A stretch of DNA of 64,000 bases, from NCBI GenBank assembly GCA_016219515.1, contig JACRMU010000065.1:1705-65704 (forward strand), in the 5' to 3' direction. Below, piece after piece: positions 1 through 45,914 of this stretch. Position numbers and translations under genes: made by a program. Under the pieces are notes generated by a model, which worked only from the letters and a program-made list of their open reading frames with translations, did no database searches and was not told where the DNA came from. Position 1 is the first letter of the stretch, and each line of letters starts with the position of its first letter. This DNA is from Deltaproteobacteria bacterium. GTDB lineage: Bacteria > Desulfobacterota > Deferrimicrobia > Deferrimicrobiales > Deferrimicrobiaceae.

Positions 1-328
1 TCGGAGAGAAGTGCACCAGCTGGGCCCGTTCCGGCGGAAGTCCGATTTCCGCCAGCAGCCGCCGGACCGTGCGGACGCGGATCTCCGCCCGGTAATTGCC
101 TTGCGACAGGCGGCAGTCTCCCTTGGGACACGCCACCACGCAAAGGCCGCGGGCGCCGCCTTCCATCGCGTGCAGGAGGTACTGCCCATCCATCTTTCCG
201 CTGCAGGGGACTTCCCGCACGAGAATCCGGGCGCCTTCCTGGTCCCATTGCCGAGGCAGATTCGCGTCCTGCGGAATGCAGTTGGTGCAGAGGTAGACGA
301 CCACGTCTGGAGAGAGGGTTTCCGACAT
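1..328 (-). CDS. MvhD-like hydrogenase iron-sulfur subunit, 3' end beyond window edge (partial)
   Basis: Reverse-complement from ATG at 326-328 reads MSETLSPDVVVYLCTNCIPQDANLPRQWDQEGARILVREVPCSGKMDGQYLLHAMEGGARGLCVVACPKGDCRLSQGNYRAEIRVRT... This is the Cys-rich pattern of methyl-viologen-reducing hydrogenase delta subunit / HdrA-associated MvhD. It is missing from the ORF track because it runs off the window. Confidence 0.55.
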   Translation of the reverse strand, partial: MSETLSPDVVVYLCTNCIPQDANLPRQWDQEGARILVREVPCSGKMDGQYLLHAMEGGARGLCVVACPKGDCRLSQGNYRAEIRVRTVRRLLAEIGLPPERAQLVHFSP

Positions 329-39691: not shown

Positions 39692-42052
39692 CTACCCCCC
39701 TGATATCGTTTGCGCTGCGAAATACGCCTGTCCCAGCGAGATCCCGCCGTCGTTGGCGGGGACCTCCCGGTGGATCAGCGTCTTGAGCTTTCTTTGCCGG
39801 AACCCGGTGAGAAGCTTCCTTAACAGATAGACGTTCTGGAAGACCCCCCCCGAGAGAAGCACGTGCCCGGCCCCCGTCCCTTCCGCGAGCCGGACCGTTA
39901 CCTCGAGAACTATCTCCGCCACAGTGTCGTGGAACTTCCGCGCGATGACCGGCGCGGGTGTCCCGGCGCTTGCGTCGGAAACGACTCCCGCGATCAGGCC
40001 CTTCCAGTCTATCCCAAGACGCCCGGCTCCGTCGCGGATCGTGTAGGGATAGGTCCCCGTCCCCCGTCCCTTTCGAATGCAACCTTCCAGCAGCATGGCG
40101 GCCTGCCCTTCGTAGCTGGCCTTGCGGCAGATGCCCGCTAGCGCGGAAGCGGCGTCGAAGAGGCGTCCGCAGCTGGAGGACGGCACAACGTTCACCTTCT
40201 TCGAGATCGCGTCGACGAGCAGGCCGATCCGTTCGGGGCCGATATCGGGAAAACGGGAGGCGGCGATCCTTCCCGCCTCCGCGGGTCCGAACGTATCGTG
40301 GAGGAACCCCACCGCGGTCCTCCACGGCTCCCGGACGGCGGCGTCGCCCCCCTGCAGCGGGAAGTAGTCGAAGGCGGCTGCCCGTTTCATCTCCATTCCG
40401 TCGATGGCGAAAAATTCACCGCCCCAGATTGCGCCGTCTTCCCCGTAGCCGGTCCCGTCGAAGGAGACGCCCACCGCCTTTCCGGAGAATCCGGACTCCG
40501 CCAGCAGGGCGTAGAGATGCGCCTTGTGATGCTGGAGGGAGAGGATGCGCCCGGCGCCGATATTTTCCGCGAAGGAGGTCGTGAAGTAGGCGGGATGCGT
40601 ATCGCGGCAGACCGCGGATAGCTCGGCGTCGAGGAACCGCCGGAAAAAATCGAAGGTCTCCTTGTAGAATTCCCGCACGGGAATCTGGTCCAGGTCGCCC
40701 AGGTGCTGGGACAGGTAGGCGAACCCCTCCTTGAGGATGCAGAAAGTGCTTTTCAGTTCACCTCCCAGGCCCGCCACGCAAAGTTTCTTAACCCCAGGGA
40801 CGTTCCTGATCGTTAAGTAATTCGGGGGGATCTCAAGCTTACTCGCGTTTTCAGGAACGTCCCCGGTCTTTAGCAGCACAGGGGCGGGGACGAAGCCGCG
40901 GGCGCGGCGGAGGGGGTAGATCTTCCCGCCGATGCTCCGGACCACGGTGTCGTCGCTTCGCTGCACGATCTCCCGGTTGTGGAGGAGAAAGAGGTCCGCG
41001 ATGCCGGAGAGGCGTGCGATGGCTTCATCGTTGCCGGTGGCGATCGGCTCGTCGGTCGCGTTCCCGCTGGTCATGACGAGCGGGAGGTCCAGCCGGTCGA
41101 AGATCAGGCGGTGCAGCGGGGTGTAAGGGAGAAAGAGCCCGAGGTTCGCAAGCCCCGGCGCCACCGACGGCGCCAGCCGGGCGTTCCCCAGGGTTTCCAC
41201 CAAAAGGACGGGCGCGGACGGAGAGGAGAGGATCGCCTCGTCGTCTTTCGAAAGGCGCGCAAGGGAGCGGGCGGCGGCGAGGTCCGTCACCATCACCGCG
41301 AACGGCTTCTCCTCCCGGTGCTTCCGCTCGCGGAGTTTGCGGACCGCTTCTTCGTTCGTCGCGTCCGCGGCCAGGTGGAAGCCGCCGAGCCCCCGGACGG
41401 CGACGATCTTTCCGGACCGGAGGGCATCGGACACGCACCCCACCGGGTCATCCGTCGCGACCGGTTTCCCCTCCCGCGTCGCCACGGACAGCGACGGCCC
41501 GCAGTCCGGGCAGGCGTTCGGCTCCGCGTGGAACCGCCGGTCCCCGGGGTCCTCGTATTCCCTCCGGCACCGCGTGCAGAGAGGGAAAACCGACATGGAA
41601 GTGTTCTCGCGGTCGTAGGGGAGCCTGCCGACGATCGTGAACCGGGGGCCGCAGCCGGTGCAGTTGATGAACGGATAACCGAAGCGCCGGTCGTTCGGGT
41701 CGGACAGCTCCCGGAGGCAGGCGGGGCACAAGGCGATGTCCGGCGGGATCGTGGAGAGGGCGGTCCCCGACTGCTCGCTCTTCTCGATGGCGAAGCCGGA
41801 GAAGCCTTCGCGCGCCACGCGCTGTTCCGTGATGCGCGCCACGCGGGCGGCGGGCGGCAGCTCTTCGCGGAACAGCTCCCGGAAGCGGCGGATCGCCTCC
41901 GGATCCCCTTCGAGGTGGACGGTCACGCTCCCCGGAGTGTTCGTCACATACCCGCGCAGGCCGCTGCGGACGGCGATCCGGTAGATGAAGGGGCGGAACC
42001 CCACCCCCTGGACCACACCGCGAATCGTAAGACGCAAGGCGACGGCCGGCAT
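39692..42052 (-). CDS. hypF: carbamoyltransferase HypF
   Basis: Acylphosphatase domain (VQGVGFRPF), two Zn-finger pairs (CPACLREL…CTGCGPRF; CTRCRREY…CPDCGP), YrdC and Kae1-like domains. True start ATG 42052 (MPAVALRLTIRG). The track's 1240-aa ORF continues upstream as an antisense artefact over hypB/hypA. Confidence 0.85.
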   Translation of the reverse strand: MPAVALRLTIRGVVQGVGFRPFIYRIAVRSGLRGYVTNTPGSVTVHLEGDPEAIRRFRELFREELPPAARVARITEQRVAREGFSGFAIEKSEQSGTALSTIPPDIALCPACLRELSDPNDRRFGYPFINCTGCGPRFTIVGRLPYDRENTSMSVFPLCTRCRREYEDPGDRRFHAEPNACPDCGPSLSVATREGKPVATDDPVGCVSDALRSGKIVAVRGLGGFHLAADATNEEAVRKLRERKHREEKPFAVMVTDLAAARSLARLSKDDEAILSSPSAPVLLVETLGNARLAPSVAPGLANLGLFLPYTPLHRLIFDRLDLPLVMTSGNATDEPIATGNDEAIARLSGIADLFLLHNREIVQRSDDTVVRSIGGKIYPLRRARGFVPAPVLLKTGDVPENASKLEIPPNYLTIRNVPGVKKLCVAGLGGELKSTFCILKEGFAYLSQHLGDLDQIPVREFYKETFDFFRRFLDAELSAVCRDTHPAYFTTSFAENIGAGRILSLQHHKAHLYALLAESGFSGKAVGVSFDGTGYGEDGAIWGGEFFAIDGMEMKRAAAFDYFPLQGGDAAVREPWRTAVGFLHDTFGPAEAGRIAASRFPDIGPERIGLLVDAISKKVNVVPSSSCGRLFDAASALAGICRKASYEGQAAMLLEGCIRKGRGTGTYPYTIRDGAGRLGIDWKGLIAGVVSDASAGTPAPVIARKFHDTVAEIVLEVTVRLAEGTGAGHVLLSGGVFQNVYLLRKLLTGFRQRKLKTLIHREVPANDGGISLGQAYFAAQTISGG

Positions 42053-42123
42053 CGGACTTCCCAGTGTACCAGAAGTGCCCCGGCTGCCGCCGATGCCGTC
42101 GCGTGTGTTATATAATCCAAGAG

Positions 42124-42278
42124 CCCGGTGCGGACTCAGGGCGCAGCGGGGGGCTTCCCTGGAGCGGCGTATGGAGCGGAGGGAGAGATTGCGTCGAAGC
42201 GGAATCCGCAGTGAGCGGACGAAGGTCGCGAACGTAGCTCCGGGGAAGTCCCCCCGCGAGCCCCGAGTCCGCACCGGG
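42124..42278. repeat. Long imperfect inverted repeat (about 36-nt arms: 42124-42159 and 42242-42278) enclosing about 80 nt with four GAGCGG/AGCGGA motifs; candidate structured 5' leader/regulatory RNA between hypF and hypB
   Basis: Left arm cccggtgcggactcagggcgcagcggggggcttccc pairs with right arm ggggaagtccccccgcgagccccgagtccgcacc(ggg) with about 3 mismatches or indels. TATAAT at 42109-42114 lies just upstream. Confidence 0.45.
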
Positions 42279-42286
42279 AAAACGCC

Positions 42287-42943
42287 ATGAAGGTGGACAT
42301 CGAGCGGCAGATCCAGCAGTCGGCGGAGGAGACCGCGGGGAAGATCCGCGACCTGCTCGCCGCCCGGAAGGTTTTCGCCGTGAACCTCATCTCCTCGCCG
42401 GGGTCCGGGAAGACCACGCTGATCGAGAGCGCGATCGAGGCGCTTCGCGGGAAGAAGCGGGTGTCGGTAGTCGAGGGGGACATCGAGACCGACATCGACG
42501 CGGCGCGGATCCGCAAGCACGGCGTCCAGGTCCATCAGATCAACACCCGTTCCTCCTGCCATGTCCCGCCGTTCCTCCTGCTGTCGGCCCTGGATCACAT
42601 CGACCTGGACGCGACGGACCTTCTCTTCGTGGAGAACGTGGGGAACCTGGTGTGCCCCGCCGAGGTGCCGCTCGGGGAAGACCTGCGCGTCGTCGCGCTG
42701 AGCGTGGCGGAAGGGGACGAGAAGCCGCTCAAGTATCCGCTGGTCTTCAAGACATCCGACATTCTGGTCATCACGAAGACCGATCTGCTCCCTTACGTCA
42801 AGTTCGACCCCGGCCGGGTGAAAGCCGCCGCCCGGGCGGTCAACCCCCGCGTGGAGATCTTCGAGGTCTCGGCGGTCACGGGATCGGGGATTTCCTCCTT
42901 CCTGGAAAGAATCGAAGAACTCTGCGGGCGGAAAACCGGGTAG
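42287..42943 (+). CDS. hypB: hydrogenase nickel-incorporation GTPase HypB
   Basis: G1 motif SSPGSGKTTL, ENVGNLVCP metal-binding motif, G4 TKTDL. Confidence 0.85.
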   Translation: MKVDIERQIQQSAEETAGKIRDLLAARKVFAVNLISSPGSGKTTLIESAIEALRGKKRVSVVEGDIETDIDAARIRKHGVQVHQINTRSSCHVPPFLLLSALDHIDLDATDLLFVENVGNLVCPAEVPLGEDLRVVALSVAEGDEKPLKYPLVFKTSDILVITKTDLLPYVKFDPGRVKAAARAVNPRVEIFEVSAVTGSGISSFLERIEELCGRKTG

Positions 42944-42947
42944 TGCC

Positions 42948-43310
42948 ATGCACGAACTGGGGATCGCGAGGGACATTCTGGACATCGCGGTTGCCGAAGC
43001 GGAGAAACACGGGGGCTGCCGGATCACCCGCGTGGATCTCGAAGTGGGGGTCCTGCGTGGGGTCGTCCCCGAGAACCTGGCGTTCCTGTTCGGCCACGTC
43101 GCCATGGGGACGATCGCCGAAGGGGCCCGCCTTGCAATAGAGGAGCAGCCGGCCCGCGTGGCGTGCGAAGCGTGCGGCCCGGTCGAGGCCCGCGGTTTCA
43201 CCATCGCATGCCCCGCCTGCGGGAGCCCCGCCGTGAAGGTCGAGGGGGGAGACGCCCTCCGCATCCTTTCCATCGACATCGACGATTCCCTGCCGGCGCG
43301 GGAGGCTTGA
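42948..43310 (+). CDS. hypA: hydrogenase nickel-insertion protein HypA
   Basis: N-terminal MHE nickel-binding signature and two CxxC pairs (CEACG…CPACG). Confidence 0.8.
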   Translation: MHELGIARDILDIAVAEAEKHGGCRITRVDLEVGVLRGVVPENLAFLFGHVAMGTIAEGARLAIEEQPARVACEACGPVEARGFTIACPACGSPAVKVEGGDALRILSIDIDDSLPAREA

Positions 43311-45914
43311 ATGAGCAAGGCGCGCGGTAATCCGAGCACGGGGCTGCCGGGGCTGGACCGGGTGGTCCAGCGGCTGCTGCCGGGCGACAACATCGTCTGG
43401 CAGGTCGATTCCATCGAGGATTATCTTCCTTTCGTCGCGCCGTACTGCGAGGACGCGGTCCGCAAGGGGAAGAAGCTCGTCTATTTCCGGTTCGCCAGGC
43501 ACGCGGAGCTTGTGGGGGAGGACAGCGGCGCGGAGATCCACCGGCTGAACCCCGAGGTGGGTTTCGAAACGTTCACCGCGGAGATCCACAAGGTGATCGA
43601 GCGGGCGGGACGCGGGACCTTCTATCTCTTCGACTGCCTGTCGGACCTGGCCGCCGACTGGTACAGCGACCTGATGCTGGGCAACTTCTTCATGGTGACC
43701 TGCCCGTACCTCTACGAGCTGGAAACGATCACCTACTTCGCTCTCCTCCGCGACCGCCACTCGTTCGAGGCGGTCTCTGCGATCCGGGACACGACCCAGC
43801 TCCTCCTCGACGTCTTCCGCAACGGGGGGAAGTTTTACGTCCACCCTCTGAAGGTCCACCAGCGGAACTCGCCGACGATGTACCTCCCCCACGTCCGGGA
43901 CGGAGAGGAATTCCGCCCCCTGACGGAGAGCGCCGTCCTCTCGGAAGTGCTTGCGCAGATCACCTCGCAGCGGGTCGATGCGGTCCCGCGCACCCCGGAC
44001 CTTTGGGACCGGAAGTTCCTCCAGGCGCGGGAGATCAAGGAGGACGTTCGTGAAGGCCGGAAACCTTCGAAGGAGGCGGAGGACATCTTCCCCGGTCTCC
44101 TGCGGATGATGGTGACCCGGGACGAACGGGTGATCGCGCTGGCCTCCCGGTACCTCGATCTCACCGATCTGCTGGCCATCCGGAAGCGGATGATCGGGAC
44201 GGGGCTGATCGGCGGAAAATCGGTCGGGATGCTCCTCTCCCGGGCGATCCTCGCCCGCACGAACGGCCGCTGGCGGGAACGGATGGAGACCCACGACTCC
44301 TTCTACATCGGCTCGGACGTTTTCTACACCTACCTGGTGCGCAACGGCCTCTGGAAGGCGCGGCGCGACCAGAGGGATCCCCTTTCCTTCCTCGCGGGGG
44401 CCAAAGGTGCAAGGAAGAAGATCCTTTCGGGGACGTTCCCCTCCTTCCTCCGCGGGCAGTTCCTCGCGATGCTGGAGTATTTCGGCCAGTCGCCGATCAT
44501 CGTCCGGTCGAGCAGCCTGCTGGAGGACAGCTTCGGCAACGCCTTCACGGGGAAGTACGAGAGCGTCTTCTGCCCGAACCAGGGTTCGCCGGAGGAGCGC
44601 CTGAAGGCCTTCCTGTCGGCAGTGAAGGCGGTGTACGCCAGCACGATGAGCGAGGATGCCCTCCTGTACCGCGCCCATCGGGGGCTCCTCGACCGGGACG
44701 AGCAGATGGCGCTCCTCGTGCAGCGGGTTTCCGGGGCCATCCACGGCAACCTGTTCTATCCGCAGGTCGCGGGCGTCGGACTTTCCTACAATCCCTTCGC
44801 GTGGAGCGAGTACATCGATCCCCAGGCGGGGATGCTGCGGGTCGTCTTCGGCCTCGGGACGAGGGCGGTCGAACGCACCGACGACGACTACACGCGCCTC
44901 GTCGCCCTCAACGCTCCCGACCGGCGGCCGGAAGCGGACTTCGGCGAGGTCATGGAGTTCGCCCAGCGCCGCGTCGACGCCCTCGACCTCTCCGCCAACC
45001 GGTTCGTTTCGCTGAACGTGGACGACGTGGTCAGGGTCAGCCCCAACCTGCCGATCGAGATGTTCGCGGCGCGCATGGAGCCGGCGGCGGGGCGTTCGAA
45101 GGACGGCGCCCCGTCCCGATGCGTCCTCACCTTCGACCGTCTGCTTTCCGCCACGCCGTTCGTATCGGACATGAAGGAGATGCTCGCCGTCCTGAGGGAC
45201 GCCTACGATTACCCCGTCGACATCGAATTCACCGCGAACTTCCTTCCCGACGGAAGCTACCGGATCAACCTCGTCCAGTGCCGTCCCCTCCAGGTCAAGG
45301 AGGGGGGAGGGATCCCGTCGCCGCCCCGGACGATTGCGAAGAAGGACCGCGTTTTCGAATCCCGCGGGCCGATCGTCGGCCAGAGCTCGCACACCGCCGT
45401 CGACCGGCTGATCTACGTGGACCCCTCCGCCTACGTGAAGCTGTCGATCGGCGACCGCCACTCCGTCGCGCGGCTGATCGGACGGATCACGCATGTCGAG
45501 GAGGAGGGGGAGAAGAAAACGATCCTGCTGCTCGGGCCGGGCCGGTGGGGGACGAAGATGCCGTCCCTGCGCGTGCCGGTGTCGTTCGCCGAGATCGCCC
45601 CCGTCTCCGTGCTCTGCGAGATCGTCTCCATGGGGGCGATCATCGTTCCGGACGTTTCCCTGGGCACGCACTTCTTCAACGACCTCGTCGAGGCGAACAT
45701 GCTCTACCTCGCGGTCTTCCCGAAGGGGAAGGAGAGCCCGCTGAACGAGGCGTTCTTCCTGCGGTCGAAGAACCGTCTCGCCGGTTTGCTTCCCGACGAC
45801 GCCGAATGGTCGGAGGCGGTGCGCGTCATCGACGTTCCGTCCGGCCGGGGGGGGAAGAAGCTCCTCCTCAATGCGAACACGCTGAAGCAACGGGCCGTCT
45901 GCTATTTCGTCTGA
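43311..45914 (+). CDS. KaiC/RecA-like N-terminal domain lacking a P-loop, fused to a PEP/pyruvate-binding (PPDK_N, ATP-grasp-like) domain protein; no phosphohistidine swivel domain seen
   Basis: N-terminus TGLPGLDRVVQRLLPGDNIVWQVDS resembles the KaiC/RadA GIPGLD...L.GG.P block, but GxxGxGKT is absent. The middle region SSLLEDSFGNAFTGKYESV…LLVQRV…GVG is like the PpsA/PPDK N-terminal nucleotide-binding domain. The ATG is directly adjacent to the hypA stop. Confidence 0.6.
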   Translation: MSKARGNPSTGLPGLDRVVQRLLPGDNIVWQVDSIEDYLPFVAPYCEDAVRKGKKLVYFRFARHAELVGEDSGAEIHRLNPEVGFETFTAEIHKVIERAGRGTFYLFDCLSDLAADWYSDLMLGNFFMVTCPYLYELETITYFALLRDRHSFEAVSAIRDTTQLLLDVFRNGGKFYVHPLKVHQRNSPTMYLPHVRDGEEFRPLTESAVLSEVLAQITSQRVDAVPRTPDLWDRKFLQAREIKEDVREGRKPSKEAEDIFPGLLRMMVTRDERVIALASRYLDLTDLLAIRKRMIGTGLIGGKSVGMLLSRAILARTNGRWRERMETHDSFYIGSDVFYTYLVRNGLWKARRDQRDPLSFLAGAKGARKKILSGTFPSFLRGQFLAMLEYFGQSPIIVRSSSLLEDSFGNAFTGKYESVFCPNQGSPEERLKAFLSAVKAVYASTMSEDALLYRAHRGLLDRDEQMALLVQRVSGAIHGNLFYPQVAGVGLSYNPFAWSEYIDPQAGMLRVVFGLGTRAVERTDDDYTRLVALNAPDRRPEADFGEVMEFAQRRVDALDLSANRFVSLNVDDVVRVSPNLPIEMFAARMEPAAGRSKDGAPSRCVLTFDRLLSATPFVSDMKEMLAVLRDAYDYPVDIEFTANFLPDGSYRINLVQCRPLQVKEGGGIPSPPRTIAKKDRVFESRGPIVGQSSHTAVDRLIYVDPSAYVKLSIGDRHSVARLIGRITHVEEEGEKKTILLLGPGRWGTKMPSLRVPVSFAEIAPVSVLCEIVSMGAIIVPDVSLGTHFFNDLVEANMLYLAVFPKGKESPLNEAFFLRSKNRLAGLLPDDAEWSEAVRVIDVPSGRGGKKLLLNANTLKQRAVCYFV

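What the first reader, a model, noticed from the sequence alone, without database searches (positions are those of the whole stretch)
42053..42286. Structured roughly 160-nt leader between hypF and hypB: 36-nt long-range inverted repeat enclosing repeated GAGCGGA motifs
Arms 42124-42159 and 42242-42278 are near-perfect reverse complements (cccggtgcggactcagggcgcagcggggggcttccc / ggggaagtccccccgcgagccccgagtccgcacc). The interior carries GGAGCGG, GGAGCGGA, GAAGCGGA and TGAGCGGA, plus a GCGGAATCCGC hairpin. A TATAAT lies just 5' (42109-42114). This is unlike a simple divergent promoter. It could be a cis-regulatory RNA (metal or redox responsive?), a protein-titrating leader, or a small ncRNA. A 39-codon Arg-rich uORF ends in an ATGA overlap with hypB, but it looks like a GC artefact.
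Basis: seen in the sequence. Interest (0 to 1): 0.5.

Follow-up and report, generated by a model that had tools for sequence, protein, structure and literature searches.

The report
Dispersed palindromic repeat in hypB leader
The big hairpin in front of the nickel-chaperone gene hypB is real, but it is one copy of a roughly 140-base palindromic repeat scattered between unrelated genes in this group of uncultured bacteria, not a nickel- or redox-sensing switch for hydrogenase genes.

Summary
Arms 42124-42170 and 42232-42278 (47 nt, 81% complementary) close a 61-nt loop, with a fold z-score of -8.7, and there are four RAGCGG motifs on one strand.

The hairpin is not a conserved hyp leader. Six of eight other hypB upstream spacers from relatives (HypB 69-93% identical) lack it. 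One holds an internally deleted copy, and one contig starts inside the element. On the hypB tree each filled site is sister to an empty one.

The same 139-nt core (91-99% identical between the five near-consensus copies, plus one at about 81%) occurs in unrelated places:
- between thiG and thiE
- between a radical-SAM gene and a nucleoside phosphorylase gene
- 3 nt after the stop codon of a CoA-transferase gene
- upstream of an HNH gene
- next to secG

This makes it a dispersed extragenic palindromic repeat, like ERIC, REPIN or MITE elements. It has no match in Rfam, phages, plasmids or E. coli.

In the window the palindrome has grown 8 bp into both flanks and replaced hypB's native Shine-Dalgarno sequence.

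Inferred effects in cis: the hypBA mRNA probably starts at the hairpin base, giving a 5'-terminal stem-loop. A 39-codon ORF inside the element ends in ATGA on the hypB start codon, which could relay ribosomes to hypB.

How the element moves is unknown. Interest is modest.

The parts
39692..42052 (-). hypF (carbamoyltransferase), divergent from hypB; start ATG at 42052-42050
   Evidence: Pfam Acylphosphatase, zf-HYPF, Sua5_yciO_yrdC, HypF_C and HypF_C_2; translation
42063..42075 (+). AGTGTACCAGAAG block. It is conserved in all close orthologous spacers and is not part of the repeat. It probably belongs to the 5' UTR or RBS region of the divergent gene, or is a regulator site.
   Evidence: Present, with at most one mismatch, in L001, L002 and L081-L085 even where the divergent gene is a maturation protease instead of hypF
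42111..42116 (+). TATAAT, the likely -10 box of the hypB promoter. It lies 7 nt upstream of the hairpin base.
   Evidence: Conserved as GTGTATAAT in all orthologues. In L082 and L085 it lies 7 nt before the hypB GTG, the spacing expected for a leaderless mRNA. The consensus scanner found no -35/-10 pair, so promoter function is inferred.
42124..42278 (+). The whole hairpin of the window copy (155 nt): the repeat-family core plus a copy-specific 8-bp extension on each side
42124..42131 (+). Copy-specific left extension CCCGGTGC, the exact complement of 42271-42278. It replaces the native leader and the 5' extension of the element that L083 still has.
   Evidence: Comparison with L083 and with the empty site L081. 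Flank duplex is -17.2 kcal/mol, against a mean of -7.5 for mismatched flank pairs.
42132..42270 (+). Repeat-family core (GGAC...GTCC, 139 nt), 91-96% identical to the near-consensus copies in unrelated contexts
   Evidence: blastn; pairwise identities; alignments A1 and A2; nhmmer E = 1e-55
42124..42170 (+). Left arm of the inverted repeat
42171..42231 (+). Loop region. It carries most of the RAGCGG cluster (occurrences start at 42162, 42174, 42197 and 42213; the first lies in the left arm), the small GCGGAATCCGC hairpin (42199-42209) and the SD-like GGAGGGAGAGA (42178-42188). In the divergent copy L100/L090, parts of the loop are better conserved than the outer arms.
42232..42278 (+). Right arm. 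It contains GTAG (42234-42237), which overlaps by one base a 25-nt imperfect palindrome of its own, GCTCCGGGGAAGTCCCCCCGCGAGC (42237-42261). This is REP-like.
   Evidence: GTAG is invariant in all copies, including the divergent L100
42271..42278 (+). Right flank GCACCGGG, now part of the stem. It is homologous to the native hypB Shine-Dalgarno region GGAGCGGG of L083 and L081.
42171..42290 (+). 39-codon ORF inside the element. It starts at ATG 42171, or at TTG 42189 behind the loop SD. Its stop TGA 42288-42290 overlaps the hypB ATG as ATGA.
   Evidence: The same frame ends as GTGA on thiE in L088 and L108, as TAATG in L109, and 5 nt inside the phosphorylase gene in L102. It is broken by two 1-nt deletions in L089.
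42287..43310 (+). hypB (42287-42943) and hypA (42948-43310), the genes downstream of the element
   Evidence: Pfam cobW/HypB and HypA

Best explanation
The hairpin is one copy of a dispersed, GC-rich, imperfect-palindrome repeat.

The family:
- The core is about 139 nt (GGAC...GTCC). Some copies carry a further 28-38 nt on the 5' side.
- It occurs in intergenic and intercistronic DNA of Deferrimicrobiaceae-like (Desulfobacterota-related) uncultured bacteria.
- It behaves like a non-autonomous or selfish extragenic element of the ERIC, REPIN or MITE kind.

History at this site:
- It entered the hypB leader between the -10 box and the native Shine-Dalgarno sequence in some lineages.
- It has since been deleted partly or wholly in others.
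- It seems to have moved between lineages by homologous recombination.
- In the window copy the palindrome was extended by 8 bp into the flanks. The likely causes are template switching at a quasi-palindrome or selection for a tighter stem. The extension overwrote the native SD.

It is not a nickel- or redox-sensing element of the hyp genes.

Inferred consequences in cis (not shown):
- Transcription from the conserved TATAAT would start at about 42123-42125, the base of the hairpin. The hypBA mRNA would then carry a very stable 5'-terminal stem-loop, of the kind known to protect mRNAs from 5'-end-dependent decay.
- The hairpin ends 8 nt before the AUG and the SD is gone. hypB translation would therefore most plausibly depend on ribosomes that load on the exposed SD in the loop, translate the 33-39-codon ORF through the right arm, and terminate on AUGA (termination-reinitiation coupling).
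For: 1. Unrelated flanks. Full copies of window 42130-42271 occur in L088, L105, L102, L089, L106 and L100/L090, and in L115. The near-consensus cores share 91-99% identity.

2. Unrelated neighbouring genes:
- thiG|thiE
- radical SAM|PNP_UDP_1
- after the stop codon of a CoA-transferase gene, convergent with ndk
- upstream of an HNH gene
- next to secG

3. Empty versus filled sites.
- hypB site: empty in L081, L082, L084, L085, L001 and L002. Filled in the window, in L086, and in L083 (internally deleted copy).
- thiG-thiE junction: a 15-nt spacer in L112-L114, against the element in L088, L108 and L109/L111.

4. Filled hypB sites are not monophyletic. Each is sister to an empty one.

5. Possible recombination tract. 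Window and L086 are about 99% identical across the element and identical over the first 60 nt of hypB, in a background of about 85%.

6. Four contigs (L086, L108, L109, L111) begin inside the element. This is typical of assemblers breaking at repeats or hairpins.

7. No sign of a dedicated RNA. Rfam has no match, there is no covariation, and extra flank pairing is present in only 3 of 9 copies.

8. Promoter and uORF.
- TATAAT lies 7 nt before the start codon in L082 and L085, and 7 nt before the hairpin base in the window.
- The ORF stop overlaps the downstream start at hypB and thiE.
- The native SD is kept in L083, where the loop SD and start are deleted. It is lost in the window and L086, where they are intact.
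Against: - No target-site duplication was found, and no transposase or parent element with the same ends. Transposition is therefore not demonstrated.
- Only one copy is present in the 64 kb window and one in 18.8 kb of L115. Copy number per genome may be low. No two copies have yet been seen on one contig, although three distinct copies each come from metagenomes Ga0214473 and Ga0206227.
- In the divergent copy the loop is at least as conserved as the arms, and the outer ends vary most between copies. This is the opposite of a classic MITE.
- The plus strand folds 5.6-13 kcal/mol better than the minus strand in all copies, with more G.U pairs. Six of seven assessable sites have the orientation of the flanking genes. 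Both points hint at selection on the RNA.
- The TSS, the 5' hairpin effect and the translational coupling are inferences with no expression data.
Confidence: 0.8

Rival explanations
1. The family is a selected, modular cis-acting RNA. It would act as a generic mRNA-stabilising hairpin with a built-in ribosome relay ORF, spread by mobility or recombination but kept because it tunes expression of the neighbouring cistron. This overlaps with the best explanation. The difference is whether the host keeps the element for a function.
For: - The plus strand always folds better than the minus strand.
- RAGCGG motifs occur on one strand only.
- Six of seven sites are co-oriented with adjacent genes.
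- The element is about 99% identical between the window and L086, while hypB third codon positions are 68% identical.
- The ORF frame ends on or next to the downstream start codon at three independent sites, and the 4-nt element-to-start distance at thiE is kept in three diverged orthologues.
- There is precedent: MIRUs with ORFs overlapping adjacent cistrons, and Neisseria REP2 carrying an RBS and ATG (Delihas 2011, PMC3184786).
Against: - The element is frequently lost or truncated at the hypB site.
- The L115 copy has no downstream gene to relay to, and the L100 copy is antisense to secG.
- The ORF is broken in L089, and substitutions in the ORF are mostly non-synonymous (read directly from the sequences).
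- Three frame coincidences have a chance probability of roughly (1/3)^3.
- The L088-L108 identity is explained by their overall relatedness of about 97%.
- The window-L086 identity may reflect a recombination tract or a chimeric contig.
Confidence: 0.25
2. It is a hyp-specific cis-regulatory leader, such as a nickel-, redox- or H2-responsive riboswitch or a protein-titrating leader that controls hypBA.
For: The position in the hypB 5' leader, the very stable structure, and the repeated motifs that could bind a protein.
Against: - It is absent from six of eight orthologous spacers, including the closest HypB relatives at 92-93%.
- The same sequence sits next to thiamine, nucleoside, CoA-transferase, HNH and secG genes.
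- There is no Rfam hit, NiCo included, at E <= 10, and no covariation.
Confidence: 0.03
3. Each copy is an independent small-RNA gene, making a multi-copy trans-acting sRNA family. It would be transcribed from the -10-like box in the 5' extension, or, in the window, from the hypB TATAAT.
For: - Four copies (L088, L089, L105, L083) share a 5' extension with nAnAAT 8-10 nt before the core.
- Parts of the central sequence are conserved even in the divergent copy.
- Copy number appears low.
Against: - No terminator follows the hairpin.
- There is no consistent -35.
- In L088 the extension lies inside the thi operon, directly after the thiG stop codon.
- Four copies lack the extension altogether.
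- The hairpin abuts start codons.
Confidence: 0.08
4. It works at the DNA level, as a palindromic operator or cruciform in the divergent hypF/hypB promoter region that is bound by a transcription factor.
For: It is a palindrome between divergent genes. As DNA it folds at -60.5 kcal/mol, z = -8.1.
Against: - It lies downstream of the -10 box rather than between the promoters.
- It occurs in intercistronic and 3'-end positions elsewhere.
- At 155 bp it is far larger than any operator.
- Motif content and fold energy are asymmetric between strands.
Confidence: 0.03

Closest known systems
ERIC (enterobacterial repetitive intergenic consensus; 127-bp imperfect palindromes)
   Same: - A long imperfect palindrome of 127-155 bp.
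- Low to moderate copy number.
- Confined to intergenic, transcribed regions, including positions inside operons.
- Patchy presence at orthologous sites.
- No known transposase.
- Able to fold in mRNA.
(ERIC size and classification are from Delihas 2011, PMC3184786. Its reported effects on mRNA are from my own knowledge of De Gregorio et al. 2005.)
   Different: There is no sequence similarity: blastn against 5,426 E. coli genomes found nothing. The phylum and base composition differ. This family also carries an SD plus ORF in its loop, and a cluster of motifs on one strand.
REPINs (REP doublets forming hairpins, mobilised by RAYT transposases)
   Same: - Two inverted arms form a long hairpin.
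- The right arm is itself a 25-nt imperfect palindrome with GTAG at its 5' edge (GTAG overlaps the palindrome by one base). GTAG is the tetranucleotide that precedes E. coli REPs (own knowledge of Messing et al. 2012).
- It is extragenic.
(The REPIN definition is from Bertels & Rainey 2011, PMC3116915.)
   Different: - REPINs have conserved ends and a less conserved spacer. Here the 61-nt centre is as conserved as the arms, and the outer ends vary.
- The left arm has no matching CTAC.
- No RAYT gene could be looked for.
- Copy number appears far lower than the hundreds typical of REPs.
MITEs such as Correia/NEMIS
   Same: A small non-coding element under 200 bp with long inverted repeats. It folds into a stable stem-loop in RNA, shows filled and empty sites, lies next to genes and can alter their expression (Delihas 2011).
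   Different: No target-site duplication was detected at the two sites where empty and filled states can be compared. No cognate IS is known. The termini are less conserved than the centre.
MIRUs (mycobacterial interspersed repetitive units) and Neisseria REP2
   Same: - MIRUs sit between cistrons of operons, and their small ORFs overlap the adjacent genes.
- REP2 (120-150 bp, about 25 copies, no TIRs) carries an RBS and ATG and sits directly upstream of ORFs.
(Both from Delihas 2011.)
- Here the element ORF ends in ATGA on hypB and GTGA on thiE.
   Different: MIRUs are short tandem units of 40-100 bp without a long hairpin. REP2 lacks the long terminal palindrome. The ORF here overlaps only the downstream start, not the upstream stop, and it is not intact in all copies.
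5'-terminal stem-loop mRNA stabilisers (for example the ompA 5' UTR)
   Same: The predicted TSS lies at the base of a very stable hairpin, so the 5' end would be base-paired. This is the feature known to slow 5'-end-dependent decay (own knowledge; Emory, Bouvet & Belasco 1992).
   Different: At 155 nt and -107 to -113 kcal/mol it is far larger than those stabilisers. The TSS has not been mapped and no half-life data exist.

Membership tests
Dispersed extragenic palindromic repeat (generic class) | The same sequence recurs at several unrelated genomic sites | tested here: met
   Seven further distinct sites with unrelated flanks; nhmmer E-values from 1e-33 to 1e-57
Dispersed extragenic palindromic repeat (generic class) | Orthologous sites exist both with and without the element | tested here: met
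   hypB site: six empty and three filled. thiG/thiE site: L112-L114 empty; L088, L108, L109 and L111 filled
Dispersed extragenic palindromic repeat (generic class) | Several copies within one genome | tested here: inconclusive
   Three distinct copies each come from metagenomes Ga0214473 (L102, L105, L115) and Ga0206227 (L088, L089, L106). However, no two copies lie on one contig, and there is one copy in the 64 kb window and one in 18.8 kb of L115.
MITE | Terminal inverted repeats | tested here: met
   47-nt arms, 81% complementary. The core starts with GGAC and ends with GTCC in most copies.
MITE | Direct target-site duplication flanking the element | tested here: not met
   No direct repeat is seen at the junctions of the hypB site (L083 against L081) or the thiE site (L088 against L112). 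The flanks are instead sometimes inverted complements.
MITE | A cognate autonomous IS with the same ends | not testable with these tools
   No further arm copies in the window or in 658 kb of fetched loci.
REP / REPIN | A short imperfect palindrome preceded by a conserved GTAG | tested here: inconclusive
   The right arm has GTAG 42234-42237 overlapping by one base the 25-nt palindrome 42237-42261, and GTAG is invariant in all copies. The left arm has no mirror CTAC.
REP / REPIN | An associated RAYT (Y1 transposase) gene flanked by the repeats | not testable with these tools
   The whole genome is not available. The 64 kb window was not scanned for Y1 transposase (RAYT) domains, and it holds no second copy of the arms.
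REP / REPIN | Ends more conserved than the spacer | tested here: not met
   The centre is as conserved as the arms or more so, and the outer ends vary
ERIC | Sequence homology to the ERIC consensus | tested here: not met
   No blastn match in 5,426 complete E. coli genomes, which carry ERIC and REP
Riboswitch or gene-specific cis-regulatory RNA | Conserved upstream of orthologous or functionally related genes | tested here: not met
   Absent from six of eight orthologous spacers. Neighbouring genes are functionally unrelated.
Riboswitch or gene-specific cis-regulatory RNA | Covariation that supports the structure | tested here: not met
   RNAalifold covariation term +1.25; 3 of 47 pairs show double changes, all from one divergent copy. 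Seven sequences is a weak test.
Riboswitch or gene-specific cis-regulatory RNA | Match to a curated RNA family | tested here: not met
   Only long-hairpin plant miRNA noise, far below gathering scores. Nothing on the other copies or in the whole window.
MIRU-like intercistronic element with coupling ORF | The ORF in the element overlaps the start of the downstream gene | tested here: met
   ATGA at hypB, GTGA at thiE (L088, L108), TAATG (L109), and a stop 5 nt inside the phosphorylase gene (L102)
MIRU-like intercistronic element with coupling ORF | The ORF is intact in all copies and also overlaps the upstream stop codon | tested here: not met
   Frameshifted in L089. No downstream gene in L115. 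The ORF starts 60-100 nt after the upstream stop codon.

The most novel reading that the evidence does not exclude
The repeat is a mobile RNA 'expression cassette' that the host tolerates or keeps. It combines three things: a hairpin that caps or insulates the mRNA, an exposed Shine-Dalgarno sequence in its loop, and a relay ORF whose stop codon lands on the next gene's start. With these it could insert between a promoter and a gene, or between two cistrons, without silencing the downstream gene. The one-strand RAGCGG cluster might be the binding site for a still unknown RNA- or ssDNA-binding protein that mobilises or regulates the element.
Probability: 0.2. Interest if true: 0.55.

Novelty: new member of a known kind. 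Interest (0 to 1): 0.3.

Why it matters
- It removes a tempting false lead. A -113 kcal/mol structure in front of a nickel chaperone gene looks like a riboswitch, but it is a repeat that landed there.
- It documents a previously uncatalogued palindromic repeat family in a poorly known, uncultured lineage. The family breaks metagenome contigs and makes gene callers predict spurious 40-77-aa proteins.
- It gives a natural series at one locus: a leaderless form, a short leader, and a full, a truncated and an extended hairpin. This series could be used to study how such elements rewire transcription start, mRNA stability and translation initiation.
- If the relay ORF works, it would be an example of how a selfish element limits the damage of inserting inside operons.

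Tried and rejected
**Database searches**
1. Rfam was run at E <= 10 on the region, at E <= 1 on the other copies, and at gathering thresholds on the whole window. Only spurious plant miRNA long-hairpin hits came back.
2. Second copies in the window were sought by arm patterns with 3 mismatches, an inverted-repeat scan and an nhmmer profile. None was found.
3. Viral contigs, plasmids, phages and E. coli genomes gave no match.
4. Fourteen of the 21 metagenome pattern hits were chance 20-mers inside coding DNA and were rejected.

**Readings considered and dropped or left open**
5. Coding uORF. The peptide is not conserved: substitutions are mostly non-synonymous, there are frameshifts in L089, and there are nested insertions in L106 and P0243. 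This rules it out as a protein gene. Translation of the ORF as such remains possible.
6. A closing stem that covaries, as in a riboswitch P1. Flank complementarity is significant only in the window, L102 and L100, and absent in four copies, so it is not a family requirement. In the window it arose after insertion (comparison with L083).
7. Extreme conservation as proof of selection. The 99% identity between L088 and L108 is explained by overall relatedness of about 97% with a mosaic patch. The window-L086 case is confounded by a possible recombination tract or chimeric contig.
8. A link to the HNH endonuclease next to the L089 copy (a HEARO- or IscB-like idea). The gene has its own TATAAA box 5 nt before its ATG, and no other copy has an HNH neighbour, so this is probably coincidence.
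9. An internal sigma-70 promoter or a terminator in the element. The scanner found none.

**Failed look-ups**
10. Exact-protein look-up of the window's own HypB found no record.
Full report
**1.

The window is 65% G+C. hypF (minus strand, 39692-42052) and hypB (42287-42943) are confirmed by Pfam. So are hypD and hypE behind hypF, and hypA plus a PPDK_N-like gene behind hypB.

The inverted repeat has arms at 42124-42170 and 42232-42278. They are 47 nt long and 81% complementary, with 61 nt between them.
- As RNA the region folds at -113.4 kcal/mol, against -74.7 +/- 4.5 for shuffles (z = -8.7).
- The opposite strand folds at -106 kcal/mol.
- As DNA it folds at -60.5 kcal/mol, z = -8.1.

RAGCGG occurs four times in 100 nt on the plus strand and never on the minus strand, against 0.19 expected. 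This is the densest such cluster in the window.

Two corrections apply.

**2. It is not a conserved hyp leader**

I collected orthologous spacers through a genome scan with HypB, a protein search and exact-protein look-ups. All close relatives keep two blocks: AGTGTACCAGAAG next to the divergent gene's start, and GTGTATAAT. The distance from TATAAT to the hypB start codon varies widely:

| Locus | Distance (nt) |
|---|---|
| L082, L085 | 7 |
| L001 | 11 |
| L081 | 31 |
| L084 | 57 |
| L083 | about 118 |
| window | 170 |

- Six spacers (L081, L082, L084, L085, L001, L002) have no trace of the arms.
- L083 has an internally deleted copy.
- L086 is a contig that begins inside the loop.
- On a hypB neighbour-joining tree the three filled sites are not a clade. 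The window pairs with empty L081, L083 with empty L082, and L086 with empty L085.
- The window and L086 are about 99% identical over the element and identical over the first 60 nt of hypB, in a background of about 85%.

The likeliest history is one old insertion, repeated deletion, and transfer of the element-bearing leader by homologous recombination. A chimeric short contig cannot be excluded for L086.

**3. It is a dispersed repeat**

One metagenome scan with a degenerate 20-mer from the arms returned 21 loci. Fourteen are chance matches in coding DNA. Seven carry the whole element with unrelated flanks. A search with the conceptual peptide of the element's ORF found further copies that gene callers had annotated as 32-77-aa proteins. 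One of these I fetched as L115.

The 139-nt core (GGAC...GTCC) is 91-99% identical among the window, L088, L105, L102 and L089. L100/L090 is a copy at about 81%.

Contexts:
- **thi operon.** The element sits between thiG and thiE, 4 nt before the thiE start. It is filled in L088, L108 and L109/L111. In L112-L114 there is a 15-nt spacer instead.
- **L102.** Between a radical-SAM gene and a PNP_UDP_1 phosphorylase gene, all on one strand.
- **L115.** 3 nt after the TAA stop of a CoA-transferase gene, convergent with ndk.
- **L089.** After a stop codon and about 90 nt before an HNH gene that has its own promoter-like box.
- **L106.** Divergent from a SpoU methylase gene.
- **L105.** After a terminator.
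- **L100/L090.** Next to secG, in the opposite orientation.

Four copies (L083, L088, L089, L105) have an extra 28-38 nt on the 5' side, with a -10-like nAnAAT. Four contigs start inside the element, as assemblers tend to do at repeats and hairpins.

Nothing similar exists in Rfam, viral contigs, plasmids, phages or E. coli genomes. The profile finds no second copy in the window or in 658 kb of fetched loci. Copy number per genome may therefore be low.

**4. What happened at this locus**

Comparing empty L081 with L083 places the insertion between ...cacggaa and the native Shine-Dalgarno region GGAGCGGG. In the window two things have changed:
- The native leader piece and the element's 5' extension are gone. 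They are replaced by CCCGGTGC.
- The SD region now reads GCACCGGG, the exact complement of CCCGGTGC.

The palindrome was thus lengthened by 8 bp after insertion, at the expense of the SD.

Extra flank complementarity of this kind is significant in only three of nine copies: the window, L102 and L100. It is therefore not a family requirement. It fits sporadic quasi-palindrome correction, or insertion into existing palindromes, better than a required closing helix. RNAalifold on seven copies finds no covariation, though the family is too uniform for that test to have much power.

**5. How it most likely acts here (inferred)**

TATAAT lying 7 nt before the GTG in L082 and L085 is the geometry of a leaderless mRNA. 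This supports TATAAT as the hypB -10 box. In the window the same 7 nt lead to the hairpin base at 42124. The mRNA would then begin with a 155-nt stem-loop, which from established knowledge of 5'-terminal stem-loops would slow 5'-end-dependent decay.

The hairpin ends 8 nt before the AUG and no SD remains. The loop carries GGAGGGAGAGA followed by TTG (42189), and an in-frame ATG at 42171. This ORF runs through the right arm and stops in ATGA on the hypB start.
- The same frame ends in GTGA on thiE in L088 and L108, and in TAATG in L109.
- It ends 5 nt inside the phosphorylase gene in L102.
- L083, which lost the loop SD and start, still has the native SD. The window and L086, which keep them, have lost it.

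This is the pattern expected for termination-reinitiation coupling, as described for MIRUs (Delihas 2011, PMC3184786). But it rests on three sites, roughly a 1-in-27 coincidence. The ORF is broken in L089, and there is nothing to relay to in L115. The peptide itself is not conserved.

**6. Hints of selection on the RNA**

In every copy the plus strand folds 5.6-13 kcal/mol better than the minus strand, with 1-5 G.U pairs against 0-2. The RAGCGG motifs are on one strand only. Six of seven assessable sites share the orientation of their neighbouring genes. Parts of the centre are conserved even in the divergent copy.

These points keep alive a reading in which the element is a tolerated or useful RNA module rather than pure junk. 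I rate that at about 0.2-0.25.

**7. Comparison with known systems**

In behaviour it is closest to:
- ERIC: a long imperfect palindrome, intergenic and intra-operon, with no known transposase.
- REPINs: two inverted arms. The right arm is a 25-nt imperfect palindrome with GTAG at its 5' edge.
- MITEs.

Its ORF feature recalls MIRUs and Neisseria REP2.

It fails specific membership tests:
- No homology to ERIC.
- No target-site duplication.
- The ends are less conserved than the centre.
- RAYT or IS partners could not be tested.

I therefore file it as a new member of the general class of extragenic palindromic repeats. It is not a member of any named family.

**8. Verdict**

The feature is real. 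The hyp-specific regulatory interpretation is wrong. The object is a new member of an ordinary class, with a few intriguing details. Interest is 0.3.

Noticed in passing
L082 795-818 and L085 600-620; compare window 42111-42116: In two close relatives the conserved GGTGTATAAT box lies only 7 nt before the hypB GTG. This implies a leaderless hypB mRNA. The HNH gene in L089 (TATAAA 5 nt before the ATG at 360) has the same geometry. Leaderless mRNAs may be common in this lineage.
   Followed up: partly
window 42063-42075 (AGTGTACCAGAAG); also in L001, L002 and L081-L085: A 13-nt block next to the divergent gene's start is conserved across all relatives. This holds even where the divergent gene is a hydrogenase maturation protease (L001, L002) rather than hypF. 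It could be a regulator site or part of that gene's 5' UTR or RBS.
   Followed up: no
L082 and L085 'tataatTCCCCCCGTG'; L084 about 470-500: The 7-nt leader of L082 and L085 contains TCCCCCCG, identical to part of the element's right arm. It may be the scar of an almost complete deletion. L084 has a small CTTCC-TTC-GGGAAG hairpin in its leader that resembles the inner arms and may be another remnant.
   Followed up: partly
L106 about 130-326 (minus strand); protein P0243: Two copies carry nested insertions of about 60 nt inside the element. L106 has one in the left arm that contains GGGTATAAT. P0243 has one in the loop or right side. P0243 comes from a MAG labelled Actinobacteria, which hints at a wider host range or a mis-binned contig.
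   Followed up: no
L088 versus L108, thiE 5' part: These two contigs are 96-100% identical except for a patch of about 250 nt at the start of thiE (76-89%), directly downstream of the element. This mosaic suggests recombination next to the repeat.
   Followed up: partly
L086 3-125, L108 1-123, L115 8592-8798, L106 (P0242): Public gene calls annotate the element's ORF as hypothetical proteins of 40-77 aa. These are almost certainly spurious, or at best non-conserved relay peptides.
   Followed up: yes
window 43311-45914; also L081 4024-6627 and L083 4187 onward: An 867-aa protein with a PPDK_N (pyruvate phosphate dikinase ATP-binding) domain follows hypA directly, in the window and in relatives. 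This is an unusual conserved partner for hypBA.
   Followed up: no
L089 360-956: A 198-aa HNH endonuclease with an N-terminus like that of small stand-alone HNH proteins (VLVLNRAYFPV...) lies about 90 nt downstream of one copy of the repeat. No other copy has such a neighbour, so this is probably coincidence.
   Followed up: partly
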